Source: a virus
Lineage: Duplodnaviria > Heunggongvirae > Uroviricota > Caudoviricetes
Strand: one strand, 5' to 3'
Virus record (IMG/VR): IMGVR_UViG_2690315748_000001
Location: 60,652 to 124,651 of that record
Length of the DNA: 64,000 nucleotides
A model generated the notes under the pieces. The model searched no databases. It was not told the origin of the DNA and was given only the letters and a program-made list of their open reading frames with translations. Shown here piece by piece: positions 2,276 to 53,857 of this stretch (its first letter is position 1; each line of letters begins with the position of its first letter). The translations under genes and the position numbers were made by a program.

Positions 2276-2920
2276 ATGATACAATGGAAACTAAGCACTG
2301 TAAATCGAAAGCTGAACGAGGAAAAAGAAAAACTCATTAACATTCTTCCATCTCACTTGAGAGAAGAGTTTAATAAAGAAGCATACATTTCTGGTGGATG
2401 TATCTATAGCTTGTACAACTACAAGGAGCCTAAAGACTACGATTTCTTTGTACACAATGAATCTTTCGCTTTAAGTCTGAGGGAATTTTTTATGAGCTTA
2501 GTGATCAACGACGAAGATGATCCAAAAGAGAAAAACATATACGTTGTCCATTATGGTGGAGAGCGAATTGTCATTACGAAGAACGCAATCTCAATAGGTA
2601 AGAAATATCAGATCATCACGAAGTTTTTCGGTACTCCAGCAGAGGTTGTGAATGAGTTTGATTTTAAGCACAATATGTTCTATCACCAAAACGATAATAT
2701 CGAAACTCTAAGCGATTGGGATTTCTTGGATAGCGAGTCCCTTGTATATAACGAACAAAGGGCTAGGGATATATCTGGAACGATCATAAGGGTTCATAGA
2801 TTCTGTGAGCGAGGGATGACAATCACCAATGCTGAGGTGTGCAAGATGCTTCGTAAACTTCGTGAAATCGGATTTACCGAAAGAGAAAACGAAATTATAG
2901 AGAACGTTGGTTCTTATTAA
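2276..2920 (+). CDS. hypothetical protein (214 aa)
   Basis: Long ORF, same-strand array; no recognisable motif. Confidence 0.45.
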   Translation: MIQWKLSTVNRKLNEEKEKLINILPSHLREEFNKEAYISGGCIYSLYNYKEPKDYDFFVHNESFALSLREFFMSLVINDEDDPKEKNIYVVHYGGERIVITKNAISIGKKYQIITKFFGTPAEVVNEFDFKHNMFYHQNDNIETLSDWDFLDSESLVYNEQRARDISGTIIRVHRFCERGMTITNAEVCKMLRKLREIGFTERENEIIENVGSY

Positions 2921-3680: not shown

Positions 3681-3724
3681 GAGCCGAAGAAAGTATTGAC
3701 AGTGAGAGGGTTAACATCTATAAT
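3681..3724 (+). promoter_or_regulatory. Repeated motif copy (gagccgaagaaagtat) immediately followed by TTGACA(3696)-17 nt-TATAAT(3719) promoter upstream of Pnkp-like gene
   Basis: Read directly: gagccgaagaaagtaTTGACAgtgagagggttaacatcTATAAT. Confidence 0.6.
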
Positions 3725-3787
3725 GAGAATATAGATGTTAACCTTTTAATTATTTAAAAGAGTTTTAAACATACAAAACATTAGGAG

Positions 3788-6169
3788 ATGATTATTATTC
3801 GTAATTTGGTTCTTTTGCGTGGCGCAATGGGAGCAGGGAAATCATTTTTCATCAAAAAAAACAAGCTGGAACAGTTTGTACTGAGTGCAGATGCAATTCG
3901 CTTGCTTTTCCAAACGCCTGTAATGACTGAATCAGGCAAGTTTTCAATCAACTCAAGAAATGATGGGAAAGTGTGGAAGTTGTTGTTTGAACTTCTCGAA
4001 GAACGTATGAAACGTGGAGAGTTCACGATTATCGACGCTACACACGCTAAACAGGAAATGATTTCACAGTATAAGGATTTAGCACAGAAGTATCGTTATC
4101 GTGTTCATGTGGTTGATTTCTCTGACATTCCTCTGGAAACACTTTTGCTCCAGAACAGAATGAGAGACGAACACAAACATGTTCCTGAACATGTTATCAT
4201 GAATGTTCATGAACGTATGCAAACAGAGCATGTTCCAAAATGGGTTAATGTAATCAAGCCCGAAGAGTTTCATGATACAGTTCAGTTTGAACAAACGATT
4301 TACGAAAACTATGATTACATTCATCATTTTGGAGACATTCATGGAAGTTATGAAGCACTTATGGAGTACTTTGCGAAGACTGGACACGCTTTCTGCCAAG
4401 ATACAGGGTATCCGATTCTAAAGGAAAATGAACTGTATATCTTTGTAGGTGATATCACTGACAGAGGCACACAGAACGCAGAAGTATTAAATTTCTTTCT
4501 AAGTATCTACGCTCTTAAAAATGTTGTAATTCTCGAAGGAAATCATGAAATTCATTTATGGAACTGGGCGAATGACGAAGATGTTCGTAGCAAAGAGTTC
4601 ATCGACTTTACTCAACCACAACTTGAAAAGCCATTCAAGTATTTGATACCAGTTGATGTTGAATTTATTGATGAACTAGAAGAAAAATTGGATGAAGATA
4701 AATTGAAGGAATACAAGAAAGAAGTACGCCAATTCTATCGCAGACTTCGCCAAGTTGTTTGTTATAAGGCTCATGGTAAGGAAGTTGTTGTTACGCATGG
4801 TGGGCTTTCCAAAATGCCCGATAATCTTATGTATCTTGCCACAGAACAACTCATCAAAGGTGTAGGTGACTACGAGGTAGATATCGACAATGCTTGGGAC
4901 AACAATCTTCCATACATTTATGGTGAGTGCATTTACGCAACAGGTGGAGATGGGCTAAAAATTCCTTACGCTTTAGAAGTGTCAAAGAAAGTAGAGTTGT
5001 ATCAAATTCATGGTCATCGCAACATTTTCCGACTGCCTGTACAAGCAGGAAAGTACAGTTTTAACCTTGAAGGACAGGTTGAGTTCGGTGGTCATCTACG
5101 TGTGGTTGCATTAGATGCAGAGGGATTTCATGCGACAGAAGTAAAGAATAACAACTTCAAGATTCGCAAGGGTGTTGTTCCTAAACATATTGACGAGACA
5201 GATACGAGCATTGATCAGCTTATCGCATACATGTCTAATCATGAAATGATTGAAGAGAAGGACTTGGGTGGAAATATCTACTCATACAACTTTACTCGGA
5301 AGGCATTTAAGGATAAAGTTTGGGATGATATCAACGTGAAGGCAAGAGGTTTGTTTATTAACAAGAACACCAAAGAGATCGTTTCTCGATCATACAACAA
5401 GTTCTTCAATGTAAACGAACGCTCTTTCACGAAGATCAATGCGCTTGCCGACAATATGGTATTCCCTGTGCAAGTCTACGACAAACCGAACGGATACCTT
5501 GGAATTGTGGGATATGATTCTGAAAGCGATGAGCTAGTGTTTAGTTCGAAGTCGTCAACTGGTGGAGAATTTGCAGGATGGTTCAAAGAATTGTTTATCG
5601 GTCAGTTTGGAAGTGTTCTGGAAGCGATCAAACAAGAGTTAAAGGACGAAAATATCGCTCTGGTCTTTGAGGTAATCAAAGTGAAAGAAGACCCACACAT
5701 CATTGAATATGCAGAAGACAAATTGGTGCTACTTGATCTGGTGAAACGTACTGTGAAATATGAAAAACTTCCATATGATGATGTAGTTCAATTCGCAAGA
5801 TTCTATGGTTTAGAGCATAAAAATCTCATGCACACATTTGACAATTGGACTGACTTTTATATCTGGTATCGTGATGTGACAAATGACTTTAGTATTGATT
5901 ACAATGAAGGATTTGTTATTGAGGACTCTGCTGGATTCATGACAAAGATCAAGCTTCCTTTCTATAGTTTCTGGAAGCAATTTAGAAACATTAAGGATTT
6001 GTTTGCTAAACGTCACGAGCATACAGTAAAAGGTGGAAGTCTGTACACACCATTGCACAATAGAGTGTTCAAGTGGATGAAGGGTCAAGACCGTCAATGG
6101 TTGAAGAGAACTGATATCATTACTATTCGCAAGGCATACTTACAGGAGCAGTCCAAAGAACTGTTATAG
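3788..6169 (+). CDS. pnkp: Three-domain polynucleotide kinase / 2',3'-phosphoesterase / RNA-ligase-like nucleotidyltransferase (bacterial Pnkp-type RNA repair enzyme)
   Basis: N-term P-loop LRGAMGAGKSF (PNK-type kinase); central calcineurin-like metallophosphoesterase motifs GDIHG, GDITDRG, GNHE; C-term ligase-type motifs KARG (motif I, KxxG variant), EGFVIED (IV), MTKIKLP (V, KxK). Confidence 0.7.
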   Translation: MIIIRNLVLLRGAMGAGKSFFIKKNKLEQFVLSADAIRLLFQTPVMTESGKFSINSRNDGKVWKLLFELLEERMKRGEFTIIDATHAKQEMISQYKDLAQKYRYRVHVVDFSDIPLETLLLQNRMRDEHKHVPEHVIMNVHERMQTEHVPKWVNVIKPEEFHDTVQFEQTIYENYDYIHHFGDIHGSYEALMEYFAKTGHAFCQDTGYPILKENELYIFVGDITDRGTQNAEVLNFFLSIYALKNVVILEGNHEIHLWNWANDEDVRSKEFIDFTQPQLEKPFKYLIPVDVEFIDELEEKLDEDKLKEYKKEVRQFYRRLRQVVCYKAHGKEVVVTHGGLSKMPDNLMYLATEQLIKGVGDYEVDIDNAWDNNLPYIYGECIYATGGDGLKIPYALEVSKKVELYQIHGHRNIFRLPVQAGKYSFNLEGQVEFGGHLRVVALDAEGFHATEVKNNNFKIRKGVVPKHIDETDTSIDQLIAYMSNHEMIEEKDLGGNIYSYNFTRKAFKDKVWDDINVKARGLFINKNTKEIVSRSYNKFFNVNERSFTKINALADNMVFPVQVYDKPNGYLGIVGYDSESDELVFSSKSSTGGEFAGWFKELFIGQFGSVLEAIKQELKDENIALVFEVIKVKEDPHIIEYAEDKLVLLDLVKRTVKYEKLPYDDVVQFARFYGLEHKNLMHTFDNWTDFYIWYRDVTNDFSIDYNEGFVIEDSAGFMTKIKLPFYSFWKQFRNIKDLFAKRHEHTVKGGSLYTPLHNRVFKWMKGQDRQWLKRTDIITIRKAYLQEQSKELL

Positions 6170-7513: not shown

Positions 7514-9103
7514 TTGAGCATTAAGCAATTGTCTACAGAGAGTTACAACAAGGAAGCAATGTTAGTGGGTATCCTTTGGAATAAACCTGACTTGTTCGAT
7601 GTTTATAACGAAGAGAAGCTTAATAAAAAAACATTTGGTAATGTGATTTGGGCTTTTTATATGGGGATTGCACGAAAACTCCATAAGGATGGCTACATGG
7701 TATTTGACGACATTACTGTTCAAGGCGTTGTAACTGAGCTAAAGCTTAACGAAAAGTTTGAAAAGTATGGTGGGTATTCCATCATTGAAGAGCTGATGGA
7801 AGAAACGAAGAATGCAACAGACAACTTCGAGGGTTATTATGACGAAGTAAAAAAGTACGCATTACTTCGTGAGTATTATCAACTATTCGGTGATAAGGTT
7901 GTCGAGAAAAAAGAAAATTACGATTATAAAACATTAAGTCGTAATGCAATCTCAATGTACTGGAACGATAAATTAAATAGTGTTGACATTGAACACAACG
8001 AGACAAGCATTGTCGCTTACAACCTGTTGGCTAATCTCGACGATTTCATTAATAGGCTGGATATCAATCCTGACTTGGGTATGCCATTCTACAAGGGTAG
8101 AAAGCTTACAGACATTATCAATGGTTGGGCTTATGGGACGCTCAGTATCATCGGAGCATTTTCAGGTAATGGTAAATCGAGTTTTGTAATGGAAAAGCTG
8201 ATCATGTCCTGCATCAAGGAAAGTGAAAAGCTTGCGATTATTGCCAACGAGATGGACTTAGACCAGTATCAGAAGATGTTACTCATTACTGTCATGGGCG
8301 CGGAAATGTATGCCAAGTTTAAAGATTACTTTGAAGAAGATAAAATTCGATTTAATCGTAAATCTATCAATAAAGGTAATTTTACAGCAGCAGAAAAGAT
8401 GAAACTTCAAATGGCTGTCGATTGGGTCAAAGAGATGATCGGTGGAAACGACAGTCTGATTAAGCTGATTCCTCTTGAAGAGTACACGATGGATAATGTT
8501 GAGAAGGTTGTCAAGAAATTCGCTCGTCGTGGCTACAATCGTTGGATTGTTGATACAGCGAAACCATCTGAGGGTGGGCGTAAAGAGCGTTGGCAACAAT
8601 TCGTTGAGGACTTTGACAGACTGTACAAGCTGGCTCGCAAAGATGGTGGCGGTCTTAACTTGGCAATGATGGCGACAGTTCAACAAGCTGATAACTATGT
8701 CGGAAAATACTGGCTGAACGAACAGTGTCTTGCAGATGGTAAGAAGATTAAGAATGTTGCTGATCTTGTGTGGCATTTACGTCCTGTGCATCCACAGGAA
8801 TATCAAGGTGGAGCAAATGAGCTTGAAGTTATCAACTGGATTCGTAAGAGCGATGATATGTTCAACAACGATGAGGTAGATGATGATGTATCGTTCACAA
8901 CTGATGATGGCACTACGCTGATGAAGCAGAAGATCACATTAAAGCAAGGGAAAGTTTATTACTTACTATTCACCAGCAAGAATCGTCGCGGTATGACTAA
9001 CCTGACTGGTCTTGATGTTCTAGTGTTAGAGGTTGACTTTAACTCAAACAGATGGAAAGAGGTTGGCTGGTGTAAGAATGTTAAGCGTGACGATTTTATG
9101 TAG
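7514..9103 (+). CDS. DnaB-like replicative DNA helicase
   Basis: TTG start; Walker A GAFSGNGKSSF, RecA-like core, about 530 aa with N-terminal DnaB-like helical domain. Confidence 0.7.
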   Translation: MSIKQLSTESYNKEAMLVGILWNKPDLFDVYNEEKLNKKTFGNVIWAFYMGIARKLHKDGYMVFDDITVQGVVTELKLNEKFEKYGGYSIIEELMEETKNATDNFEGYYDEVKKYALLREYYQLFGDKVVEKKENYDYKTLSRNAISMYWNDKLNSVDIEHNETSIVAYNLLANLDDFINRLDINPDLGMPFYKGRKLTDIINGWAYGTLSIIGAFSGNGKSSFVMEKLIMSCIKESEKLAIIANEMDLDQYQKMLLITVMGAEMYAKFKDYFEEDKIRFNRKSINKGNFTAAEKMKLQMAVDWVKEMIGGNDSLIKLIPLEEYTMDNVEKVVKKFARRGYNRWIVDTAKPSEGGRKERWQQFVEDFDRLYKLARKDGGGLNLAMMATVQQADNYVGKYWLNEQCLADGKKIKNVADLVWHLRPVHPQEYQGGANELEVINWIRKSDDMFNNDEVDDDVSFTTDDGTTLMKQKITLKQGKVYYLLFTSKNRRGMTNLTGLDVLVLEVDFNSNRWKEVGWCKNVKRDDFM

Positions 9104-9130
9104 AATGCCAAAAAGTATGGTGATAAAAAA

Positions 9131-10219
9131 ATGAACGTAAATGACTTGCCAATAATCAAGGAGAGAATTTATGAGGAAGGTCTGGTAGAGCAAATACTTG
9201 AAGCATTAGAGTGTGAGTATGTTAGACCTATCGGGAATGCAAGATATGAAGCTATGTTGCCTTTACGATTCATGAAAGGGAATAAGAGGGCAGTTCAAGT
9301 GAAAAACACGCCTTCCTTGCCCTCTCACATTTACACAACAGGTGTGAATGGAGATATATTCCTTCTTGTTGGATACATCTTGTATGGAGTGGAAACACAA
9401 GAAGAACTTCAAGATATATTATTTCAATGTAAAGCTTTTGTTTGCAATCTGTTTGGATGGCATGAGTACATCACTTATGAACAAGGCGATGACTTCGAAG
9501 AGATTGTTGAGAAAAGGGATTATCTCGCGTTTTTAAGACCTACTCAGAAAGACAGAAAAAAACGGAATAGGCTTAAAGTTATGAGGGATAAGGAGAACCA
9601 AGTGTTGGACAAAGATACTGTATTCAGTTGGTATCGTCAGATTCCGCAAGGAGCCTTTATTGAGGATGGAATCAGTGTTCGTACACAGAAGGTTTTCGAA
9701 GTAATGTTTGATGAAACAACCATGAGAGTTGTGTTTCCTATCTACAACTCAAATGGTGAATTAGTCTCGATCAAAGGCAGATACATCGGAGATGATGAGT
9801 GGGTTCTTGACGAAATCAAGTATCTATATCTGTATAGCTTCGATAAGAGTATCGAACTATTCAATTATCATAGAGCATTACCATATATCAAAAAATCAGG
9901 TGAAGTAATTGTCTTTGAATCCGAAAAGTCCTGCATGAAAGCATATCAATATGGTTTCAAGAATTGCGTTGCGATTTGCGGCTCTGAATTGAGTCCTGTA
10001 CAGGCACACATGCTCATTATGCTAGGTGTTAATATAACTTTTGCTTTCGACAATGATATGGACGATGAGCATGTAAGAAAGCAAGCGAAGCAGATACGTA
10101 CACGAAAATGCTTCTGGATTAAAGACACCCTCGGACTTCTCGACGAGAAGGACGCGCCTGTCGATAAGGGGAAGATAGCGTGGATAAAATTAATGAACGA
10201 GTGTCGAAGCGTAATTTAG
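9131..10219 (+). CDS. DNA primase (TOPRIM domain)
   Basis: TOPRIM motifs VIVFESEKS ... FAFDNDMDDEH; adjacent to helicase. Confidence 0.6.
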   Translation: MNVNDLPIIKERIYEEGLVEQILEALECEYVRPIGNARYEAMLPLRFMKGNKRAVQVKNTPSLPSHIYTTGVNGDIFLLVGYILYGVETQEELQDILFQCKAFVCNLFGWHEYITYEQGDDFEEIVEKRDYLAFLRPTQKDRKKRNRLKVMRDKENQVLDKDTVFSWYRQIPQGAFIEDGISVRTQKVFEVMFDETTMRVVFPIYNSNGELVSIKGRYIGDDEWVLDEIKYLYLYSFDKSIELFNYHRALPYIKKSGEVIVFESEKSCMKAYQYGFKNCVAICGSELSPVQAHMLIMLGVNITFAFDNDMDDEHVRKQAKQIRTRKCFWIKDTLGLLDEKDAPVDKGKIAWIKLMNECRSVI

Positions 10220-10881
10220 GGTTTACAACACTCGCTATTCTGTTAGCGGTTCTTGCTACTGGATGTGGTCAAAACCATGAAGAAAATAAGGTAGATGTTG
10301 TCGAATCGAATACAGTTGTGTATAATCCAATCTTGGACTTGCAAGTTAAGAAAATCGTGGAAAAGCAAGCTGAGATCGAACGACAAGAGAAGGAAAAGCA
10401 AAAGGCTTTGAAAGCCGCTAAGACCAAAGCAGAAGCTAAGACTAAGGAAAAAGCAGAGAGAAAAGCGGAAGAAAAAACTGTAGCGGCTAAAACGGAAGCT
10501 AAAAAGAAGGCTAGACGAGAGGTAACGACACAAGCAGGAAGTGGTAGTTGGGATTCATATGTTTTAACTCACTATACAGCTACTTGCAGAGGGTGTAGTG
10601 GATTCACTAGAACCGAAATTGATGTTCGTAAAACTACTGAATATCATGGATACAAGGTTTTGTCTGTTGATCCAAGAAGGATTCCTCTCGGTTCGATTGT
10701 AGAGATCAAAGATGGCGATAGAACGTATAAGGCTATTGCTATTGATACAGGTGGTGCGATTAAGGGGAATAAGCTCGACCTACTTGTTGGTAGTAATAAG
10801 GAAGCTGTCAGACTCGGCAAGAAAAATATTAAGTTAAGGATAGTGAGAAGAGGATGGCAAGACGCAAAAAACAAGAGCTAG
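10180..10881 (+). CDS. Lipoprotein with C-terminal 3D (MltA/YabE/Rpf-like) domain
   Basis: Lipobox LAVLATGCGQ; coiled Lys/Ala/Glu-rich linker; 3D-domain signature YTATCRGCSGFT ... AIDTGGAIKGNKLDL. Confidence 0.55.
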   Translation: MDKINERVSKRNLGFTTLAILLAVLATGCGQNHEENKVDVVESNTVVYNPILDLQVKKIVEKQAEIERQEKEKQKALKAAKTKAEAKTKEKAERKAEEKTVAAKTEAKKKARREVTTQAGSGSWDSYVLTHYTATCRGCSGFTRTEIDVRKTTEYHGYKVLSVDPRRIPLGSIVEIKDGDRTYKAIAIDTGGAIKGNKLDLLVGSNKEAVRLGKKNIKLRIVRRGWQDAKNKS

Positions 10882-11117
10882 ACACAGTACCGATTGCAGA
10901 TCATTACGAAACGGTCGTTGCATTCACGCAAAATTGTTTTAAAGATGGTCAGGTAATGTGTATTATGCCGAAGTTTGGCGAGACGTATCAAATAAGTGGC
11001 AAGAATGGAAACTATACTTTTACAGAACAAGTGCTGGAAGACATGCTGGAAACAGGACAAGTGAAGATAACTTGGCGCAATGAAAAAGAAGTAAGTCTCA
11101 TGGGTGTTATAGTATAG
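10854..11117 (+). CDS. hypothetical protein
   Basis: ORF in array. Confidence 0.35.
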   Translation: MARRKKQELDTVPIADHYETVVAFTQNCFKDGQVMCIMPKFGETYQISGKNGNYTFTEQVLEDMLETGQVKITWRNEKEVSLMGVIV

Positions 11118-11139
11118 CCCATGGTTCACTTCTTTTAAT

Positions 11140-11160
11140 GAGCCGAAGAAAGTACTATAA
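11140..11160 (+). repeat. Repeated motif copy gagccgaagaaagtactataat (with TATAAT but weak -35)
   Basis: Exact core; the track ORF start ATG 11138 lies inside this element. Confidence 0.7.
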
Positions 11161-11179
11161 TAATAGGGAGTTGTTGTAT

Positions 11180-12868
11180 TTGGCGAAATGGATAAAGCGC
11201 AACAACGTAAAGGTTAAGAATGATATGTTGCTGATTGAGAAGTTAGCAAAGGTCAGAGGGATTAAGAATCTTGAAGAGTGGATGAACCCTCCTTCTATTT
11301 CAGTGAACAGCCCATACAAGCTGATGAACATTGATTTGATTGTCCAGAGAATCATAAAGGCAATTCACACACAAGAATTGATTGTGATTGTAGCTGACAT
11401 TGATACAGATGGAGTTTGTTCTACAGGAACCATGTTTAACTACCTGAAAGAATTGACTGACAATATCAAGTACATTCACGCACAACGGAGTCATGGTCAT
11501 GGTGTAGAGACTGTAGTAGATCAAATCCAAGAGGATTGTCTGGTGATTATTGTTGACTCGTCATCTAACTCTGTAGAAGGTTGTAAGGTATTGAGCGATA
11601 AGGGCATAGATGTACTCATTATCGACCATCACCAGATAGACGAAGAGAATCCATATGCAACGATTGTGAACTGTCAGCAGGGGGATTATCCAAACAAACA
11701 TCTTTCTGGTAGTGCAATGTGTTATAAGGTGTGTCAGGTTCTTGATGAATACTTAGACATTGATCTTGCTGACGATTTTCTTGATCTTGCGGCAATTGGA
11801 ATCGTAGCAGACATGATGGATATCAGAAACATGGAAAACCGATATCTTATCTACAATGGGATGAATAACATACTCAATCTTGGCATCAGGGAAATTTTGA
11901 AGCAAAGCAAGATTGACTATCAAGATGGCATCACCTCTACCAATATAAGCTTTAAGATTGCACCAATTATAGGCGCTTGCTCTCGTTTTGATAAAATTGA
12001 GTTGGCTCTTGAGCTTGTCACCTGTGAGGATGAAGCAAGAGTGAAAGAATTGGTCAAAGAGATGATTGAGATGAATGAAAAGCGTAAAGTCAATCAGAAG
12101 TTTTATGTTGAAGGTGCTGTCGAAAGTATTGACGATTCTCACAACATTATCGTCTACGTGGATAATGAAATTGATTCTGGCTTTAGAGGATTGATAGCAA
12201 CAGACTTTGTGGAACGATTCAATAAACCAGTATTCGTTCTAGCTGAATTTAAGGATGACGAGGGAAATATTATCGAGTATAAGGGTAGCGCGCGCGCAGT
12301 AGGCGTACTTCCTCTTAAAGAATTATGTGAAAGTACTGGTCTTTTTAATCTGACAAAAGGTCACGAAGGAGCCTTTGGTATTGGTTTTATTGCCGAAAAT
12401 CTCCCTAAGATAATTTCTTTCTTTGATGACACTTTAGATAGTACAGACCTTCAAAAAGTAGTTCAATACGACTTGGAATTGCATTCCAGTGACATTGACG
12501 AGATGGATATTAAACAAGTTGAGAAGTTTTCTCGGATCGTTGGTCAAGGATTCCCTGAACCAAAATTCCTTATAAAAGGATTGGTTGCGGAGGAAGAAGA
12601 AACCAAGAAGCTTGGCAAGTATGTTCGTGCTATACAAGGAGCTAACAAGGATACAATTAAGATTCCTTGCGAAGATGGATTTGCTCTGATGAAGTTCAGA
12701 ACACAAGATACGTATGCGAAGGATGTTGAAGATCATTTCTATGCTAATTTCGCTACTGAAATTGATGCAATCGGAAGCCTCAACATTAATCGTTTCTATC
12801 ATGGCGGTTATAAGCGTTGGATTACAACCAAGCAAGTGTTTTTGGAGGATTACAATATCATTGAATAG
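11180..12868 (+). CDS. DHH-family phosphoesterase, RecJ-like single-strand nuclease
   Basis: DHH motifs VADIDTDG and IIDHHQ, DHHA1-like C-terminal region; start uncertain (track ATG 11138 sits inside repeat/promoter; AGGGAG RBS at 11165 favours TTG 11171-11180). Confidence 0.6.
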   Translation: MAKWIKRNNVKVKNDMLLIEKLAKVRGIKNLEEWMNPPSISVNSPYKLMNIDLIVQRIIKAIHTQELIVIVADIDTDGVCSTGTMFNYLKELTDNIKYIHAQRSHGHGVETVVDQIQEDCLVIIVDSSSNSVEGCKVLSDKGIDVLIIDHHQIDEENPYATIVNCQQGDYPNKHLSGSAMCYKVCQVLDEYLDIDLADDFLDLAAIGIVADMMDIRNMENRYLIYNGMNNILNLGIREILKQSKIDYQDGITSTNISFKIAPIIGACSRFDKIELALELVTCEDEARVKELVKEMIEMNEKRKVNQKFYVEGAVESIDDSHNIIVYVDNEIDSGFRGLIATDFVERFNKPVFVLAEFKDDEGNIIEYKGSARAVGVLPLKELCESTGLFNLTKGHEGAFGIGFIAENLPKIISFFDDTLDSTDLQKVVQYDLELHSSDIDEMDIKQVEKFSRIVGQGFPEPKFLIKGLVAEEEETKKLGKYVRAIQGANKDTIKIPCEDGFALMKFRTQDTYAKDVEDHFYANFATEIDAIGSLNINRFYHGGYKRWITTKQVFLEDYNIIE

Positions 12869-12885
12869 GGGCGTGTGATAGTCAA

Positions 12886-13143
12886 ATGAATGAAGACATT
12901 TTGATTAAGATGTATGTAGAAGCGTCTGATGAAGGTCATGTCATTACAGGCTTAACGGTATCACGATCAGGCTCTATTATCGAGACGATTATTAATGATG
13001 ACAAACATAAAGATATTAGACATTTGAATCAATATGCTGGTGCAGTCATTATGGTTTTTTACAATAGAGAATTTCATGAATCAGGAGTTTTTGAAAAGGC
13101 TGGATTCAATAAAAACTTTGTAACTTCTGTTTATTACAAGTAG
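12886..13143 (+). CDS. hypothetical protein
   Basis: ORF with GGGGCGTG leader. Confidence 0.4.
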   Translation: MNEDILIKMYVEASDEGHVITGLTVSRSGSIIETIINDDKHKDIRHLNQYAGAVIMVFYNREFHESGVFEKAGFNKNFVTSVYYK

Positions 13144-19339: not shown

Positions 19340-19948
19340 ATGAAGGATATGAATTTTTTTAATCCGTTCACCTATTCTGATAAAGAGCGATGGAAAGACA
19401 TAGAGAAGCAAATGATATTTGAAGCGTGGGTTCCATTTGTATCGAACCGTCCGCTTCAATTTTTTGTGCCTTACCCGAAAAGTGAGGAAGAGGAAGAATC
19501 ACCATTACATACAGGAATTACAAAAGGACACCTTACGAGCATCATCGGTGATGATTCAACATCAAGCACTCATAATGTTGTTAGCACTTTAAAAAGAAGA
19601 AAAGTAGTCGTTCTATCGAGGGACAGCGTGTGCAAAAACGACTATATGCCTGAAATAATAGTGGCAAGGATTTTCTCTATTAAAGATAAACATAGAGAAG
19701 CGCGTTGGTATCCTGATTTGGTGAGTGGAAATCATGAGTGGTTTGTTCATTTGCCAAAACACATTACAGGGAAAGAGTCATATGTTAATATGACGCAAAC
19801 TATGCCAATTGGTAAGAACCTACTGATAGAAAAGTATGGTTTGTTAGATGGAGAACTTATGAAAATGGTAGAAGCAAGATATAAGCATGGGATTGATCTT
19901 GGAGTCATTAAGGAAACAAACGATGGCTTTATGGCATCTAGCGAATAG
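19340..19948 (+). CDS. hypothetical protein (202 aa)
   Basis: ORF with RBS gaaaggaac; no motif recognised. Confidence 0.45.
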   Translation: MKDMNFFNPFTYSDKERWKDIEKQMIFEAWVPFVSNRPLQFFVPYPKSEEEEESPLHTGITKGHLTSIIGDDSTSSTHNVVSTLKRRKVVVLSRDSVCKNDYMPEIIVARIFSIKDKHREARWYPDLVSGNHEWFVHLPKHITGKESYVNMTQTMPIGKNLLIEKYGLLDGELMKMVEARYKHGIDLGVIKETNDGFMASSE

Positions 19949-20302: not shown

Positions 20303-21073
20303 ATGATAATTGAGAGAAGTATACTTGTGAAGGCACTGGTTGGCTCACATAACTACAATCTTGCAACGCCAGAGTCAGACAAAGACTACAAGATATTCAC
20401 CATGCCAACGTTCGATGATCTTTACAGAGGTAAAATGTACTCGAAGGCAGATGTTGGATTAGAGTTCGATTTCGATGTGCATGACATTAGGAAAATGGTT
20501 GCTCTGTTCTGGAAAGCAAACATCAACTTCCTTGAAGTCCTCTACTCGAAAGAAAATCACATCTATGATAAAAACATTAAAGAAATATACAATCTGCGGA
20601 AAGATATAGTGAGAATGAATCTACCTTACTTATACAATGCATGTAGAGGAATGCACTTCGAAAAGATGAAGCGTCTGGATAACCCAACAGAAGGAACAGC
20701 ACACTTGATTGAGAAGTATGGCTATAATACCAAAGAAGCATTACATGCTTACAGGGTTCTCGATTTTATTACTCGATTTGCATATACAGACTTCGAGGAT
20801 TTCGAATGGGCAATGACTTACGATGAAAACCTTAGAGAAAGAATGCTTGAAATCAAAAATGGAGAATACCCAAAAGTAACGTTCCAAATGTTGATTCGTC
20901 AAAAGATGAGTCAATTCGAAAAGTTTGACCAAGCATACTATAGTCAAAAGCCCAATGAAGAATTAAAACAGCACATTGATTTAATTATATACAATATGAT
21001 TAAGGAAAATTTTCAAGGAACTAAAGAAAGTACTTTGGGAGGAAATGAAGATGCTCAAACAATTACGCAGTAA
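20303..21073 (+). CDS. Polymerase-beta-superfamily minimal nucleotidyltransferase-domain protein
   Basis: GSHNYNLATPESDKDY matches the hG[GS]x9-13Dh[DE]h NTase signature; 256 aa. Confidence 0.4.
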   Translation: MIIERSILVKALVGSHNYNLATPESDKDYKIFTMPTFDDLYRGKMYSKADVGLEFDFDVHDIRKMVALFWKANINFLEVLYSKENHIYDKNIKEIYNLRKDIVRMNLPYLYNACRGMHFEKMKRLDNPTEGTAHLIEKYGYNTKEALHAYRVLDFITRFAYTDFEDFEWAMTYDENLRERMLEIKNGEYPKVTFQMLIRQKMSQFEKFDQAYYSQKPNEELKQHIDLIIYNMIKENFQGTKESTLGGNEDAQTITQ

Positions 21074-22466
21074 CCCAATTATGTTGACTGACGCATACAA
21101 CTTGTCGCACCAAAACTTGAAGGTTAATACAGATTGGGAAATATCCCATATGTACAATCGTTCCAAGTCAATGATTCTGTTCGGACTTCTTGAAATTATT
21201 AACAACATCTTGGAGACACGAATCAACATGTCAATGATTGACGAAGCTGAATTTCATGCAAATCGTATGGGAATTACATTCCCTAGAAAACTTTGGGAGC
21301 GAGTAGTCAAGGAATGTGGTGGTTATATTCCCTTGGAGATACAAGCTCTACCAGAAGGTACGTACTGCCCTGTAGGAACACCTTTCGCTCAAATTCGTAA
21401 CACAGTTAAGGGTTTTGGTGAAATGGTTACATGGTTCGAGGGCGAATTGATGCACGCTTATTTCCCATCAACCGCTGCTACACAAGCACTTCGTATGCGG
21501 CGTTATCTGGAACAAAAGAAGCGTCAATATGGTTATGATGACAGTTTTATGCTTCGTTTGCACAGCTTTGGATTTCGAGGTCATCGCAGCCTTGAAGACG
21601 CATATTGGGCAGGGATTTCGTGGAATTTATTCTTGTATGGTACAGACGACTTCCACACAGCATTTCACACTCCAAGTGCGAATCTCGTAAGTATCGCAGC
21701 TACTGCACACAAGGTAACACAGCAATTTGACAATGAGTATGAGGGTTATAGACATGTGATCAAGGCAACAGCAGATGTAGGGGAGAAGATCGTAGCAATC
21801 GTAATTGACACATATGATGCATATCGTTTCCTTGATGAATACTTAATTCCATTGGCTAAATACGCCGCATCGCTTGGAGTTCATATGGTAATTCGTCCAG
21901 ACAGTGGCGACACATGGGAACAGGTTGTGATTGCATACAAGAACATTTCTCGTCACTTCATTCCGATCACGAATGTTACTGCTATCATTGGTGAAAGCAT
22001 GGACTTTGAAAATGTGAAAAAGGCAGATGCTTATTTTGAGCAACATGGCGTTCCATTGAACTTCGTATCATATGGAGTTGGTGGAGGATTCTACAACTAT
22101 GCAAATCGAGATACGCTTGGATGGGCAATGAAAACAGCTTACTCTAATGGTAAAGATCGCATGAAATTCTCTGAGAATCCAATCAAACGTAGTATTCCTG
22201 GGGTTGTTGAACTTTATCGCAATGAATATGGTGATTTAGTTGTAGGCAAAGAGAATAGTGTCAAAGAAGGAAAACTCTACGAGACGATCTACTTCCATGA
22301 TGCTGTAGCTGATACGCCGATCATGAAGCAATATTCCGATGAACATTGGTTGTCTGTTCAGGCGACAGCTCTTTCGGCAAACACAGAGCAAGCAAATATC
22401 TATCTCAGCGATGAAGTTCGTACAGAGATTGGCGAGTTCCAAAGACGATACAGAAATCGGGTGTAA
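21051..22466 (+). CDS. nadV: Nicotinamide phosphoribosyltransferase (NadV/Nampt)
   Basis: NPIMLTDAYNLSH N-terminus, FGFRGHRS, IRPDSGD motifs of the type II PRTase/NadV family; start 21051 preferred over 21045 for RBS spacing. Confidence 0.75.
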   Translation: MLKQLRSNPIMLTDAYNLSHQNLKVNTDWEISHMYNRSKSMILFGLLEIINNILETRINMSMIDEAEFHANRMGITFPRKLWERVVKECGGYIPLEIQALPEGTYCPVGTPFAQIRNTVKGFGEMVTWFEGELMHAYFPSTAATQALRMRRYLEQKKRQYGYDDSFMLRLHSFGFRGHRSLEDAYWAGISWNLFLYGTDDFHTAFHTPSANLVSIAATAHKVTQQFDNEYEGYRHVIKATADVGEKIVAIVIDTYDAYRFLDEYLIPLAKYAASLGVHMVIRPDSGDTWEQVVIAYKNISRHFIPITNVTAIIGESMDFENVKKADAYFEQHGVPLNFVSYGVGGGFYNYANRDTLGWAMKTAYSNGKDRMKFSENPIKRSIPGVVELYRNEYGDLVVGKENSVKEGKLYETIYFHDAVADTPIMKQYSDEHWLSVQATALSANTEQANIYLSDEVRTEIGEFQRRYRNRV

Positions 22467-22468
22467 CT

Positions 22469-23086
22469 ATGTCAATGAACCTAAGAAAGTATAAGTTTGG
22501 ATTTGTTATTGGTCGATTCCAGATGCTACATGCAGGACACGAACATCTAATTAATACAGCTTTAGCTCAGTGCGAGAACTTACTAATCCTAGTGGGTTCA
22601 TCGCAAGAGTCTAAAACGTTCAGGAATCCATTTGATGCATTTACTAGAATCCTTATGCTTAAAGAGATTTATGGTGATAATCCAAACGTTTACATTGCAC
22701 ACATTGCAGACCTAACCAATGAAAACGATCATTCACATGATTGGGGTAGGTACTTGTTAAACGAGGTGAATGATTGGGCTGAAATATGCGATATAAAAGA
22801 ACCACTTGACGCGATGTTCTATGGCAATGACGAAGAACGTGAAGACTGGTTTGACCCAAAAGACATTGAAGGAATTGCACAGATTAAGCTTGATCGAGCA
22901 GACATTCTAATCAGTGGGACAACAATGAGAAGCTATCTCGCATGGAACAACTTTACTCTGTGGTCGAAGTTTGCTAATCAGAAGCTTCATAGTTACTTTG
23001 AAACTTTGAGACAAAAACTTTTTGAGGTGGGAAAAGACGATGACGAAGAGACAGTTAAAGATTGGCGACGAAGTAGAGGTAATTAG
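22469..23086 (+). CDS. Nicotinamide-nucleotide adenylyltransferase (NadM/NadR-type NMNAT)
   Basis: GFVIGRFQMLHAGHEHLI, the (H/T)xGH cytidylyltransferase motif in the NadM context, directly downstream of nadV. Confidence 0.7.
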   Translation: MSMNLRKYKFGFVIGRFQMLHAGHEHLINTALAQCENLLILVGSSQESKTFRNPFDAFTRILMLKEIYGDNPNVYIAHIADLTNENDHSHDWGRYLLNEVNDWAEICDIKEPLDAMFYGNDEEREDWFDPKDIEGIAQIKLDRADILISGTTMRSYLAWNNFTLWSKFANQKLHSYFETLRQKLFEVGKDDDEETVKDWRRSRGN

Positions 23087-23579
23087 GAATACGTATAATG
23101 ACTACATCAAAATAGGTATGAAAGGTGTAGTCAAGGATTTACGTTGTAACAATCAGGAAATTGGTGTTTGCTTCAACGAACATGATATTCATGGACACGA
23201 TCTCAATGGAAAGGTCAAATATGGACATGGGTGGTATTTTTATTTAAGTGAGATTAAACATATTGAGCATTCAGAGAAAATCACTGTCATGCTTGAAGGG
23301 AAGAGAACAACTGTCACACTGGAAGATGGAAGTGTTGGTATATCTAATCCAACGTATAAAGATAAATATAATTTAGAAAAAGGCATCGAGATTGCGAAAA
23401 CAAAAGCACTGATTGCACGAAACAAAAAGAAAGGTGAAGAGATGGAAGGGAAGGCACAAAAATTGAGTGTTCAAATTGCTGATCTACAGCGTGAATACTC
23501 AGAAGTAGTGAATCATATCCCATTTATTTACAATGAAATTACTGAATTAGAAGGAAAAGTCAAGGAAATCGGAGGGTAA
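23040..23579 (+). CDS. hypothetical protein with C-terminal coiled coil
   Basis: ORF; GAGGTGG RBS then ATG 23040; overlaps end of NMNAT gene. Confidence 0.4.
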   Translation: MTKRQLKIGDEVEVIRNTYNDYIKIGMKGVVKDLRCNNQEIGVCFNEHDIHGHDLNGKVKYGHGWYFYLSEIKHIEHSEKITVMLEGKRTTVTLEDGSVGISNPTYKDKYNLEKGIEIAKTKALIARNKKKGEEMEGKAQKLSVQIADLQREYSEVVNHIPFIYNEITELEGKVKEIGG

Positions 23580-23582
23580 CAC

Positions 23583-24113
23583 ATGACAACAACACACGAA
23601 TCATTGTACAAGACTCCATGGGTGGAGTTGATGAAACGAACATCGGATGAAGATGGTACATATATCTACATTCGTGAGCCATGGCTAATCAATGGTCAAG
23701 CAATTTCGATTCTTCCATATCGTCTTGATTGCGACGAAATCGAATTGTTGGTTCGATGTGAAGTGGCTGATGTTCCTGTGATGGGTACTATTAAGGGTGG
23801 TTGTGACAAAGAAGGGGAAGCCATTGAAGAAACAGCGGTTCGTGAACTTCTTGAAGAAGCTGGTTACTCAATTCATCCTTCGCAATTAATTCATTTAGGA
23901 ACTGCTAGAACATCGAAGCTCAACACAACAACGATGAATCTGTTTGCAGTCGATCTGACTGATGAAGAGCAAGGTGAAGCAATTGGGGATGGCACGAAGA
24001 ATGAAGCAAATGCTTACTGTAAGTGGATTTCAGAAGAAGAGTCTTTAGATGTACAAGACCCAATCATCCACACTTCGATGGTCAGACTTATAAATCAAAG
24101 TGGAAGATTTTAA
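23583..24113 (+). CDS. Nudix hydrolase (probable ADP-ribose pyrophosphatase)
   Basis: Nudix box GGCDKEGEAIEETAVRELLEEAGY (GX5EX7REUXEEXGU). Confidence 0.7.
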   Translation: MTTTHESLYKTPWVELMKRTSDEDGTYIYIREPWLINGQAISILPYRLDCDEIELLVRCEVADVPVMGTIKGGCDKEGEAIEETAVRELLEEAGYSIHPSQLIHLGTARTSKLNTTTMNLFAVDLTDEEQGEAIGDGTKNEANAYCKWISEEESLDVQDPIIHTSMVRLINQSGRF

Positions 24114-28270: not shown

Positions 28271-29563
28271 ATGCAGACTGTGATGGAAATATTTAGGGAG
28301 ATTAAAGAAACATCAAGCAGAACAGGCAAGGAAGCTATTCTAAAAGCAAATGTTGATAATCAAGATTTTCGTAAAATTTTGGAGTTTCTCTACAATCCAT
28401 TCGTCCTGACAGGAATTAAAGCAAAGAAGTTACAGAAGTTCTCTGATTATAACGCTCATCACATTCAATTTTTTAATGTTTTTGAAGCTATTAACTTCAT
28501 CGTTAAGAATAATACAGGTCGAGATGAAGATGTTAAGGCGATTGCTAACTTCATTAATAGTCGCACAGGTGAAGTTCATGATTTCCTCCAAGATATGTTC
28601 ACGAAGGATTACAAGTGTGGCATCACTGCCAGTACGATCAACAAGGTATATGGCAAGGGAACAATCCCTGAGTTCGATGTATTGCTTGCTAAAGCGTACA
28701 AAGATCATGGTCATAAGCTAAAAGGTCGCTTCTACATTACGTTAAAACTTGATGGAATCCGATGTGTTGCGATTAAGAAGAATGGTGTAGTTCAGTTCTT
28801 CACTCGTCAAGGTCAACCTATTGACGATCTGGTTGATATTGAGGATGAGATTACACGCAACTTCCCTGACAACTTCGTTTACGATGGAGAATTGCTTCTG
28901 AAAAATCCTCTTGGACTGCCAAGTGATACTCTGTTCCGAGCAACGCAGAAAGTTGTTCGGAAGGATGGAGTCAAGAAGGACTTAGAGTTCCATGTATTTG
29001 ATGGACTTCCAATTGATGAGTTTATGGAAGGAAAGTCTAAGCTGACATATGAGCAACGTAGATCAGAATTGGATAGTGGGATATTCAGTACAAGCCATGA
29101 ACATGTACATTATCTGCCGATCCTTTACGTGGGTGAAGATAAGACTGTTATCAGTGATATCCTAGCAGAAGTTGTCTCATTGGGTCATGAAGGTCTGATG
29201 ATTAATACAGCCAAAGGACACTATGTAACCAAACGATCTGATGTGTTATTAAAGGTTAAAGAGATGCACACAGTTGACCTGAAAGTCCTTGGACTTGAAG
29301 AGGGTAGTGGTAAGTATAAAGGTACTCTAGGCGCTATCATCGTAGATTACAAAGGGTACGAAGTTAGAGTTGGTTCTGGATTCACCGATCCCGAACGAAA
29401 CATGCTGTGGAACACTAAAAATATCAAGGAATTGAGTCTTGTAAATAAGATAGCTGAAATTCAATATTTCGAGGAATCGACAAATCAGGATGGCGGTATC
29501 TCGCTGAGATTCCCTGTATTTTTACGCATCAGAGATGACAAGACGGAGCCTAGTCTACATTGA
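28271..29563 (+). CDS. ATP-dependent DNA ligase
   Basis: Adenylation motif I KLDGIRC (KxDG) plus downstream nucleotidyltransferase/OB region; 430 aa. Confidence 0.75.
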   Translation: MQTVMEIFREIKETSSRTGKEAILKANVDNQDFRKILEFLYNPFVLTGIKAKKLQKFSDYNAHHIQFFNVFEAINFIVKNNTGRDEDVKAIANFINSRTGEVHDFLQDMFTKDYKCGITASTINKVYGKGTIPEFDVLLAKAYKDHGHKLKGRFYITLKLDGIRCVAIKKNGVVQFFTRQGQPIDDLVDIEDEITRNFPDNFVYDGELLLKNPLGLPSDTLFRATQKVVRKDGVKKDLEFHVFDGLPIDEFMEGKSKLTYEQRRSELDSGIFSTSHEHVHYLPILYVGEDKTVISDILAEVVSLGHEGLMINTAKGHYVTKRSDVLLKVKEMHTVDLKVLGLEEGSGKYKGTLGAIIVDYKGYEVRVGSGFTDPERNMLWNTKNIKELSLVNKIAEIQYFEESTNQDGGISLRFPVFLRIRDDKTEPSLH

Positions 29564-53791: not shown

Positions 53792-53829
53792 AAAAGGATT
53801 GCCTGAGCTTCATACTAGGCAATCCTTTT
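53792..53829 (+). terminator. Terminator hairpin aaaaggattgcct-loop-aggcaatcctttt
   Basis: Read directly; related hairpins at 56243 and 56571. Confidence 0.55.
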
Positions 53830-53857
53830 GCCATTATTCAGCAGGAGGATTTTAACT

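What the first reader, a model, noticed from the sequence alone, without database searches (positions are those of the whole stretch)
3788..6169. Phage-encoded three-domain Pnkp-like RNA repair enzyme (kinase, metallophosphoesterase, ligase-like adenylyltransferase)
A single 793-aa polypeptide combines a PNK-type P-loop kinase, a calcineurin-like 2',3'-phosphoesterase and a C-terminal nucleotidyltransferase domain with ligase motifs I, IV and V. This is the architecture of bacterial Pnkp, which normally works with Hen1. In phages the canonical analogue is T4 Pnk plus Rnl1, which heals tRNAs cut by anticodon nucleases. A fused Pnkp in a Bacillus phage suggests a counter-defence against host tRNA or rRNA-cleaving ribotoxins. 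No Hen1-like methyltransferase partner is evident nearby. Either the C-domain is a fully competent ligase, or sealing follows a T4-like path without methylation.
Basis: partly seen in the sequence, partly recalled or inferred. Interest (0 to 1): 0.65.

Follow-up and report, generated by a model that had tools for sequence, protein, structure and literature searches.

The report
Phage heal-and-seal RNA repair enzyme
A Paenibacillus phage encodes one protein predicted to carry out all three steps of mending cut RNA; its sealing part is built like the tRNA-splicing ligase of fungi, not like bacterial Pnkp, so it should not need the helper protein Hen1.

The parts
3696..3724 (+). Sigma-70/SigA-type promoter, TTGACA-17 nt-TATAAT, about 64 nt upstream of the ATG
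   Evidence: 12 of 12 consensus match. It is the only perfect match in the 64-kb window. A promoter at the equivalent position (11 of 12) precedes the orthologue in a P. alvei phage contig.
3705..3747 (+). 18-bp-stem inverted repeat followed by a T-rich tail. It overlaps the -10 box and is probably the intrinsic terminator of the upstream transcription unit.
   Evidence: Terminator-like hit. The 13-nt arms GTTAACATCTATA are perfect and unique in the window. An equivalent hairpin that uses G-T pairs lies at the same place in L002, which favours an RNA structure over a DNA operator. This reading is inference.
3783..3787 (+). Shine-Dalgarno sequence AGGAG
   Evidence: Read directly from the sequence. 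It abuts ATG 3788, and its spacing would suit an ATT start at 3794 or 3797 better.
3788..6169 (+). CDS of the three-domain RNA repair enzyme (793 aa including the three residues M-I-I, which may precede the true start)
   Evidence: PHROG 8238, 777 bits, full length; identical NCBI protein.
3797..4282 (+). Domain 1 (aa ~4-165): P-loop polynucleotide 5'-OH kinase with K18, S19, D35, R38 and R126
   Evidence: Pfam AAA_33. Sequence match to CthPnkp kinase 4gp7/4mde and fold match with TM 0.74. The listed residues are invariant in 119-120 of 120 homologues, except S19 (112 of 120).
4295..5152 (+). Domain 2 (aa ~170-455): binuclear metallophosphoesterase, the predicted 2',3'-cyclic phosphodiesterase / 2'(3')-phosphatase
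   Evidence: Aligned to CthPnkp phosphatase 4j6o with D183=D187, H185=H189, D222=D233, R226=R237, N252=N263 and H253=H264. Fold match to 4j6o and to lambda phosphatase. H337, H408 and H410 are invariant. Lineage-specific insertions lie at aa 200-210, 281-309 and 378-402.
5195..5965 (+). Domain 3a (aa ~470-726): ligase adenylyltransferase module, made of the Rnl1-like N sub-domain and the NTase core. Residues: R520, K538, K566 (motif I nucleophile), K588, E628 (motif III), H637, E707/G708 (motif IV), K720/K722 (motif V).
   Evidence: Pfam PF09511, 2e-38. Residue equivalences to Chaetomium Trl1-LIG: K148, E218, H227, K323/K325. All listed residues are invariant.
5483..5485 (+). Codon of K566, the predicted AMP-accepting lysine
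   Evidence: Invariant KxNG motif. It aligns with CtTrl1 K148 in TLKENG and with T4 Rnl1 K99 in KEDG.
5966..6166 (+). Domain 3b (aa ~727-793): all-helical C-domain of Trl1-LIG (Rnl6) type, with K730, R733 and R781
20303..21073 (+). Possible accessory gene, 14 kb downstream: RlaP-family (RNA-ligase-associated Pol-beta) nucleotidyltransferase. Any link to the ligase is unproven.
   Evidence: Pfam PF10127, 26.7 bits against a cut-off of 23. PHROG 388 nucleotidyltransferase, 1.6e-32. Family role as described in PMC12776372 and PMC7824862.

Best explanation
The gene encodes a self-sufficient, Hen1-independent RNA 'heal-and-seal' enzyme of an SPbeta-related Paenibacillus phage.

Predicted steps:
1. 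The N-terminal P-loop kinase (K18, D35) phosphorylates the 5'-OH end of a broken RNA.
2. The central binuclear metallophosphoesterase has a complete CthPnkp-type active site, including H185, the counterpart of H189. It opens the 2',3'-cyclic phosphate to a 3'-OH,2'-PO4 end and, by analogy with wild-type CthPnkp, then removes the 2'-phosphate.
3. The C-terminal ATP-dependent ligase is adenylylated on K566, transfers AMP to the 5'-phosphate and seals the break.

The ligase is of the fungal Trl1-LIG (Rnl6) type, not the Pnkp (Rnl4) type. The protein is therefore a hybrid of Pnkp-like healing modules and a Trl1-like sealing module.

The gene is transcribed from its own consensus promoter, at the head of the replication and nucleotide-metabolism module. 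Its most likely job is to reverse cleavage of tRNA, or of other RNAs, by host ribotoxin-type defences, as T4 Pnkp plus Rnl1 do.

Shown in silico: domain identity, intact catalytic residues, fold, and absence of Hen1 and Tpt1 in the window. Inferred: all enzymatic activities, the end chemistry, the substrate and the counter-defence role.
For: - Three domains score above the Pfam thresholds.
- The match to PHROG 8238 'RNA ligase' is full length.
- The full-length AF2 model has pLDDT 91 and pTM 0.82. Its fold matches are kinase to CthPnkp kinase, phosphatase to CthPnkp phosphatase and lambda phosphatase, and ligase to Trl1-LIG ahead of T4 Rnl1.
- The family profile hits C. glabrata Trl1-LIG at E 1e-30 and aligns through the C-domain.
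- All catalytic residues of the three domains are invariant or nearly so in 120 homologues down to 42% identity, and in a Staphylococcus phage orthologue at 38%.
- The phosphatase active-site residues map one-to-one onto CthPnkp.
- CthPnkp healing followed by Rnl1-type sealing of tRNA halves has been shown experimentally (PMC1920235).
- No methyltransferase, Hen1 or Tpt1 is found among the window ORFs of 100 aa or more, nor among the shorter ORFs flanking the gene that were scanned.
- The gene has a perfect promoter.
- Neighbouring genes include a Gad2-like nucleotidyltransferase two genes upstream, and further downstream an RlaP nucleotidyltransferase and a NAMPT/NMNAT pair.
Against: - There is no biochemical or genetic evidence for any member of the family. 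I found none in the searchable literature.
- The ligase keeps the Trl1 2'-PO4-binding triad (H637, K730, R733), which fits a 2'-phosphate-dependent route better than the T4-like route.
- Homologues also occur at ordinary chromosomal sites in Bacillus haynesii and Desmospora, so the function is not strictly a phage counter-defence.
- The rest of the 154-kb contig, about 90 kb, could not be inspected for Hen1 or Tpt1.
- No host ribotoxin has been identified.
Confidence: 0.7

Rival explanations
1. Yeast-type route. The Trl1-like ligase captures the 3'-OH,2'-PO4 intermediate made by the phosphoesterase and seals it. This leaves a 2'-phosphate at the junction. That phosphate is either removed by a host Tpt1/KptA or kept, in which case it would block re-cleavage much as Hen1 2'-O-methylation does.
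For: - H637, K730 and R733 occupy the positions of the fungal 2'-PO4 (sulfate) ligands H227, R334 and R337. They are invariant or nearly so (K730 is K in 118 and R in 2 of 120). T4 Rnl1 has Ile at the His position and no counterpart of the two basic residues (PMC11404444; PMC6379707).
- The Trl1-type C-domain is present.
- CthPnkp opens the cyclic phosphate to a 2'-PO4 intermediate. The H189D mutant stops there, and its ends are sealed by yeast Trl1-LIG (PMC1920235).
- In this family the equivalent His185 is Gln in 12 of 120 homologues. This needs at least 7 changes on a neighbour-joining tree, with every other catalytic residue kept.
- Asn or Gln replacements of the essential CthPnkp histidines did not restore the 2'/3'-monoesterase (PMC3675462).
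Against: - The window's own protein has His185, so it should be a full phosphatase.
- There is no Tpt1/KptA in the window.
- In the phage collection the genera carrying KptA (Erwinia, Dickeya, Klebsiella, Clostridioides and others) barely overlap with those carrying this enzyme (Staphylococcus, Streptomyces, Lactobacillus, SPbeta-like Bacillus phages).
- K730 is Lys, not Arg.
- Plant tRNA ligase requires a 2'-PO4 yet lacks the two arginines (PMC12440814), so the triad is not a reliable predictor of end specificity.
Confidence: 0.22
2. One reading: a bona fide bacterial Pnkp whose ligase-like domain needs a Hen1 partner encoded elsewhere in the genome.
For: The domain order kinase-phosphoesterase-adenylyltransferase is the same as in Pnkp. 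The two N-terminal domains match CthPnkp structures best. About 90 kb of the contig was not inspected.
Against: - TIGR04075 scores 87.5 bits against a 750-bit cut-off and matches only profile positions 9-307 of 851.
- No Rnl4 structure appears in the top 50 Foldseek hits.
- No methyltransferase or Hen1_L domain is found in the window.
- The orthologue neighbourhoods that carry Pfam labels (L002-L005, L009, L010) show no Hen1 domain; the only methyltransferase there is a SpoU-family gene in L010.
Confidence: 0.03
3. The enzyme is not a counter-defence factor. It is a general nucleic-acid end-processing enzyme that serves RNA quality control or stress repair, or DNA-end repair, and is simply carried by phages and cells alike.
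For: Stand-alone chromosomal copies lie outside prophages in B. haynesii (between rap-phr and ypuD-rib) and in Desmospora activa. In the phage the gene sits in the DNA replication and nucleotide-metabolism module. CthPnkp kinase also phosphorylates DNA ends (PMC1920235).
Against: The ligase belongs to RNA-specific clades (Rnl1/Rnl6). The phage already encodes an ATP-dependent DNA ligase at 28271-29563. The only experimentally understood phage analogue, T4 Pnkp plus Rnl1, is a counter-defence system.
Confidence: 0.12

Closest known systems
Fungal tRNA ligase Trl1, LIG domain (Rnl6 clade; Chaetomium thermophilum 6N0T/6N67/8RBJ, Candida glabrata 9QW7)
   Different: The domain order is kinase-phosphoesterase-ligase, whereas Trl1 is ligase-kinase-CPD. 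The 3'-end healer is a binuclear metallophosphoesterase, not a 2H cyclic phosphodiesterase. The first basic residue of the triad is Lys. Sequence identity is only 20-23%. The source is bacterial and viral, with no tRNA introns to splice. Dependence on a 2'-PO4 is unknown.
Bacterial Pnkp (Clostridium thermocellum Pnkp) of the Pnkp-Hen1 RNA repair system
   Same: The N-terminal P-loop kinase and the central binuclear metallophosphoesterase are homologous, with the same active-site residues. The overall domain order is the same.
   Different: The C-terminal ligase belongs to another family: Rnl1/Rnl6 here, Rnl4 in Pnkp. It lacks the features that make Pnkp depend on the Hen1 N-terminal domain. 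It fails the equivalog cut-off (87.5 against 750 bits). No Hen1 was found.
Bacteriophage T4 Pnkp + Rnl1 tRNA repair (counter to the PrrC anticodon nuclease)
   Different: T4 uses two proteins. Its phosphatase is a DxDxT (HAD) acylphosphatase, not a metallophosphoesterase. The tRNA-specific C-domain of T4 Rnl1 is not shared: the alignment stops at motif V.
Pnkp1-Rnl-Hen1 complex (Capnocytophaga gingivalis; 4XRP)
   Same: It combines a Pnkp-like kinase-phosphatase with a separate, competent RNA ligase.

Membership tests
Bacterial Pnkp (NCBIfam TIGR04075 equivalog) | Full-length match above the curated cut-off of 750 bits | tested here: not met
   87.5 bits. Only aa 6-299 match, against profile positions 9-307 of 851.
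Bacterial Pnkp | N-terminal P-loop polynucleotide 5'-kinase with a P-loop Lys/Ser and an Asp general base | tested here: met
   GAMGAGKS at 12-19, D35 and R38. K18, D35 and R38 are invariant and S19 is nearly so (112 of 120). The best PDB sequence and fold match is CthPnkp kinase.
Bacterial Pnkp | Central binuclear metallophosphoesterase with Asp187, His189, Asp233, Arg237, Asn263, His264, His323 and His376 | tested here: met
   D183, H185, D222, R226, N252 and H253 align residue for residue. H337 and H408/H410 are invariant and are presumed to be the counterparts of H323 and H376 (that part of the alignment was not printed).
Bacterial Pnkp | C-terminal Rnl4-type adenylyltransferase domain that needs Hen1-N to seal | tested here: not met
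Bacterial Pnkp-Hen1 system | Hen1 2'-O-methyltransferase partner gene | tested here: not met
   No methyltransferase or Hen1_L domain is found in the window ORFs of 100 aa or more, nor in the shorter flanking ORFs scanned. No Hen1 domain appears in the orthologue neighbourhoods that carry Pfam labels. About 90 kb of the source contig could not be fetched.
Rnl1 family (Pfam PF09511; T4 RNA ligase 1) | Adenylyltransferase with motifs I (KxxG), III, IV and V plus the Rnl1-like N sub-domain | tested here: met
Rnl1 family sensu stricto (T4 Rnl1) | The T4 Rnl1-specific C-terminal domain that confers tRNA specificity | tested here: not met
   Profile alignments to T4 Rnl1 end at residue 247-249, just after motif V.
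Rnl6 clade (Trl1-LIG) | The distinctive all-helical C-domain appended to the Rnl1-like adenylyltransferase | tested here: met
Rnl6 clade (Trl1-LIG) | His-Arg-Arg triad that binds the terminal 2'-PO4 (CthLIG H227, R334, R337) | tested here: inconclusive
   H637 lies 9 residues after the motif III Glu, as in fungi. K730 is Lys (K in 118, R in 2 of 120) and R733 is invariant. The positions are conserved, but the first basic residue is Lys.
Rnl6 clade (Trl1-LIG) | A 2'-PO4 is required for sealing | not testable with these tools
   This needs ligation assays with pRNA-2'OH against pRNA-2'p substrates.
Fungal/plant Trl1 holoenzyme | LIG-KIN-CPD domain order with a 2H-family cyclic phosphodiesterase | tested here: not met
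   The order here is KIN-metallophosphoesterase-LIG, and there is no 2H domain.
T4 Pnkp | DxDxT (HAD) 3'-phosphatase domain fused to the kinase | tested here: not met
   The phosphatase is calcineurin-like. No HAD match was found.

The most novel reading that the evidence does not exclude
Bacteria and their phages have a Trl1-type (Rnl6) ligase, a clade so far described only from fungi and provisionally from kinetoplastids. In this fusion the ligase would take the 3'-OH,2'-PO4 intermediate directly from the adjacent Pnkp-type phosphoesterase and leave a 2'-phosphate at the repaired junction. That mark would make the mended tRNA resistant to a second cut, a functional analogue of Hen1 methylation. 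It would also give bacterial Tpt1/KptA, an enzyme with no known substrate in bacteria, a natural one. The recurrent His185-to-Gln variants would then be natural 'cyclic-phosphodiesterase-only' versions committed to this route.
Probability: 0.17. Interest if true: 0.8.

Novelty: new variant of a known kind. Interest (0 to 1): 0.5.

Why it matters
RNA repair as a phage counter-defence is understood experimentally almost only through T4 Pnkp plus Rnl1, even though tRNA-cleaving defences are now known to be common. This family is large: more than 3000 database proteins, 165 phage genomes including Staphylococcus and SPbeta-like Bacillus phages, and also bacterial chromosomes.

It joins Pnkp-type healing modules to a Trl1-type ligase in one chain. 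None of the characterised systems has that combination. It shows that the 'fungal' Rnl6 ligase design, including its C-domain and the positions of its 2'-phosphate pocket, exists in prokaryotic viruses. This bears on where eukaryotic tRNA ligase came from. It also raises a simple testable question: does the enzyme seal 2'-OH or 2'-phosphate ends?

A single-polypeptide enzyme that heals and seals 2',3'>P / 5'-OH RNA could also be a useful reagent.

Caveat: the gene itself is an ordinary, already deposited and annotated ('RNA ligase') member of the family. Comparative-genomics surveys that I could not open may already list this architecture.

Tried and rejected
- Megablast of the gene and of window 1-25000 against the phage collection gave no near-identical phage.
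- Burroughs & Aravind 2016 (NAR 44:8525), the most likely prior catalogue of this architecture, is not held.
- Literature searches for a characterised phage or bacterial Trl1-like/Rnl6 ligase, or for this fusion, found nothing specific.
- Tpt1/KptA coupling. I fetched E. coli kptA. tblastn against the window gave a best E of 0.68. In the phage collection KptA occurs in 98 records, of genera almost disjoint from the 165 that carry this enzyme. The kptA neighbourhood in phiCD211 has no RNA ligase. So there is no support for an obligate Tpt1 partner.
- I tested whether the Gad2-like nucleotidyltransferase (2276-2920) and the RlaP nucleotidyltransferase (20303-21073) are paralogues. They are not significantly similar (E 1.3), and the former has no PDB sequence match.
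- Attempts to extend beyond the window, to search the rest of the 154-kb contig for Hen1 or Tpt1, failed. The flanking proteins are not on record, or only short Logan contigs without DNA were returned.
- Three consecutive 87-aa ORFs (1396-2220) looked like tandem paralogues but are unrelated in sequence.
- The inverted repeat over the -10 box was considered as a DNA operator. The orthologous hairpin in L002 keeps its pairing through G-T pairs, which favours an RNA terminator.
- No tRNA genes lie in the window, so the phage does not obviously use the alternative 'bring your own tRNA' strategy here.
Full report
**Observation**

The ORF at 3788..6169 (+) exists and translates to 793 aa without interruption. 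Pfam places three domains above their gathering thresholds:
- an AAA_33 P-loop kinase, aa 7-145;
- a calcineurin-like metallophosphoesterase, aa 178-348;
- RNA_lig_T4_1 (PF09511), aa 518-726, covering the whole profile at E 2e-38.

PHROG 8238 ('RNA ligase') matches from end to end at 777 bits. The identical protein is already in NCBI as 'RNA ligase [Paenibacillus sp. Mc5Re-14]' on a 154,442-bp contig. The host is therefore Paenibacillus, not Bacillus.

The window is phage-like and SPbeta-related. It encodes YorH-, helicase-, primase- and RecJ-like genes, NrdIEF and NrdD, and an M15 endolysin and tail genes. No near-identical phage is in the phage collection.

**What the three domains are**

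I aligned 120 homologues, from 84% down to 42% identity. Every expected catalytic residue is invariant or nearly so:
- kinase: K18, D35, R38, R126;
- phosphoesterase: D183, D222, D225, R226, N252, H253, H337, H408, H410;
- ligase: R520, K538, K566-x-N568-G569, K588, E628, E707-G708, K720, K722.

A Staphylococcus phage orthologue at 38% identity keeps all of them.

Direct alignment to the crystallised CthPnkp phosphatase gives D183=D187, H185=H189, D222=D233, R226=R237, N252=N263 and H253=H264.

The AlphaFold2 model is confident (pLDDT 91, pTM 0.82). Foldseek assigns the kinase to CthPnkp kinase (TM 0.74) and the phosphatase to CthPnkp phosphatase and lambda phosphatase. It assigns the ligase first to fungal Trl1-LIG and then to T4 Rnl1. 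No Pnkp ligase structure appears in the top 50.

**The ligase is not Pnkp-like**

- The NCBIfam Pnkp equivalog scores 87.5 bits against a 750-bit cut-off and matches only the first two domains.
- A profile of the family hits Candida glabrata Trl1-LIG at E 1e-30 and Chaetomium Trl1-LIG at about 3e-18. These alignments run through the Trl1 C-terminal helical domain to the end of the protein. T4 Rnl1 (E 6e-11) aligns only as far as motif V.

I counted residues in the printed alignment, using 6N0V native numbering. This gives K566=K148 (the Trl1 nucleophile, mutated as K148N in PMC12440814), R520=R99, K588=K169, E628=E218 and K720/K722=K323/K325.

K518 varies across homologues (K 86, R 28, H 2, L 1, Q 1). 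The conserved residue in that motif is R520, which corresponds to an RNA 5'-end contact in Trl1.

**The 2'-phosphate question**

Fungal Trl1-LIG needs a 2'-PO4 on the 3'-OH end. The pocket is formed by H227, which lies nine residues after the motif III Glu, and by R334 and R337 just after motif V (PMC11404444, PMC6379707, PMC12440814).

In this family H637 lies exactly nine residues after E628 and is invariant. K730 (K 118, R 2) and R733 (invariant) align with R334 and R337. I verified my recalled T4 Rnl1 sequence as 100% identical to 2C5U. T4 Rnl1 has Ile167 at the His position and nothing alignable at the two basic positions.

On the healing side, wild-type CthPnkp opens the cyclic phosphate to a 2'-PO4 intermediate and then removes it, giving ends that T4 Rnl1 seals. 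The H189D mutant stops at 3'-OH,2'-PO4, and those ends are sealed by yeast Trl1-LIG instead (PMC1920235). Asn or Gln substitutions of the essential histidines did not restore monoesterase activity (PMC3675462).

The window's protein has His185. However, 12 of 120 homologues carry Gln there with every other catalytic residue intact. These include the close Paenibacillus and Brevibacillus relatives. On a neighbour-joining tree this needs at least seven changes.

Both routes are therefore chemically coherent. I rank the T4-like route (2'-OH ends) first for this particular protein because of His185, and because no Tpt1 is present. I keep the yeast-like route as a serious rival.

Evidence against an obligate 2'-phosphate junction:
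- There is no Tpt1/KptA in the window.
- Phage genera with KptA barely overlap with those carrying this enzyme.
- Plant tRNA ligase needs a 2'-PO4 yet lacks the arginines (PMC12440814), so the triad does not predict end specificity reliably.

**Partners and context**

No methyltransferase or Hen1 domain occurs among the window ORFs of 100 aa or more, nor among the shorter ORFs flanking the gene that were scanned. No Hen1 domain appears in the neighbourhoods of orthologues that carry Pfam labels. The remaining 90 kb or so of the contig could not be retrieved.

The gene has its own perfect TTGACA-17-TATAAT promoter at 3696-3724. This overlaps a terminator-like hairpin at 3705-3747. The same arrangement precedes the orthologue in a P. 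alvei phage contig.

Other genes in the window:
- Two genes upstream lies a nucleotidyltransferase, 73% identical to a protein that carries the Pfam Gad2 (anti-Gabija) label.
- Fourteen kb downstream lies an RlaP-family 'RNA-ligase-associated' nucleotidyltransferase. It is directly followed by NAMPT, an NMNAT-like gene and a Nudix gene.

These neighbours fit an anti-defence gene set, but that is only association.

The family is not restricted to phages. It lies in SPbeta-like prophages, and also at ordinary chromosomal sites in Bacillus haynesii and Desmospora activa.

**Comparison and novelty**

Functionally, the protein should work like T4 Pnkp plus Rnl1, or like fungal Trl1, in a single chain. 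It is not a member of bacterial Pnkp, because the equivalog score, the Rnl4 ligase and Hen1 all fail. It is not T4 Rnl1 sensu stricto, because the C-domain differs. It is not Trl1 holoenzyme, because the domain order and the 3'-end healing fold differ. Its ligase module does meet the structural definition of the Rnl6 clade, on a predicted model.

I found no paper describing an Rnl6-type ligase in bacteria or phages, or characterising this fusion. The jumbo-phage survey mentions only in passing that calcineurin-like phosphatases sometimes accompany phage RNA ligases.

The gene is thus an ordinary, already annotated member of a big family, and the family is an uncharacterised hybrid variant of known RNA repair systems. 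I score interest at 0.5 and rate it a new variant of a known kind.

Noticed in passing
window 3696-3747; L002 9911-9959: A perfect sigma-70-type promoter has its -10 box inside the left arm of an 18-bp hairpin followed by a T-run. This looks like a terminator and promoter overlapping. The same arrangement precedes the orthologous gene in a P. alvei phage contig, where pairing is kept partly through G-T pairs.
   Followed up: partly
window 3783-3799: The AGGAG Shine-Dalgarno sequence directly abuts the annotated ATG, which is followed by three ATT codons (ATG ATT ATT ATT). 107 of 120 homologues begin one residue before the conserved Arg. The true start may therefore be the ATT at 3797 (or 3794), an unusual start codon shared by the seven closest relatives.
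   Followed up: partly
window 2276-2920: A 214-aa nucleotidyltransferase-like protein lies two genes upstream of the ligase gene and is syntenic in the P. alvei phage. It is 73% identical to a protein with a precomputed Pfam 'Gad2' (anti-Gabija) hit and matches the PHROG 1614 nucleotidyltransferase family. The local Pfam copy gave no such hit for it.
   Followed up: partly
window 20303-24113: An RlaP-family (RNA-ligase-associated Pol-beta) nucleotidyltransferase is immediately followed by NAMPT, an NMNAT-like cytidylyltransferase and a Nudix hydrolase. This looks like an NAD+ salvage set of the kind phages use against NAD-depleting defences.
   Followed up: no
window 19340-19948 and 53828-54313: A 202-aa ORF has a weak PemK/MazF-toxin-like C-terminal domain (20.9 bits, below the cut-off) and lies just upstream of the RlaP gene. 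A separate 161-aa ORF has a MazE/AbrB-type N-terminal domain. [quoted passage not shown]
   Followed up: no
aa 185 of the protein (window 4340-4342) across homologues P0005-8, P0010, P0015, P0017, P0019, P0033, P0063, P0067, P0115: The metal-ligand His equivalent to CthPnkp His189 is replaced by Gln again and again (at least 7 changes on a neighbour-joining tree), with all other catalytic residues kept. In CthPnkp, changes at this residue abolish the monoesterase step, and H189D redirects repair to the 2'-phosphate route.
   Followed up: partly
aa 200-210, 281-309 and 378-402 (window ~4385-4417, 4628-4714, 4919-4993): The phosphoesterase domain carries insertions specific to this lineage (family median length 736 aa against 793 here). 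They are modelled as extra beta-hairpins. The last one has lower confidence (pLDDT 60-79).
   Followed up: no
L010 (Desmospora activa chromosome) 8001-13000; L003 (Bacillus haynesii) 7877-12797: Chromosomal, non-prophage copies of the three-domain gene exist. In Desmospora the gene lies 1.4-2.8 kb from a SpoU-family 2'-O-methyltransferase and a barnase-type ribonuclease/barstar pair. In B. haynesii it lies next to a rap-phr cassette, inserted before ypuD-ribDEAH.
   Followed up: no
table (contig lengths of P0001, P0002, P0004, P0008, P0010, P0013): The closest homologues all sit on contigs of 139-154 kb in Paenibacillus assemblies. This suggests complete phage genomes assembled as separate replicons, either an extrachromosomal or pseudolysogenic state or phage carried along in the culture.
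   Followed up: no
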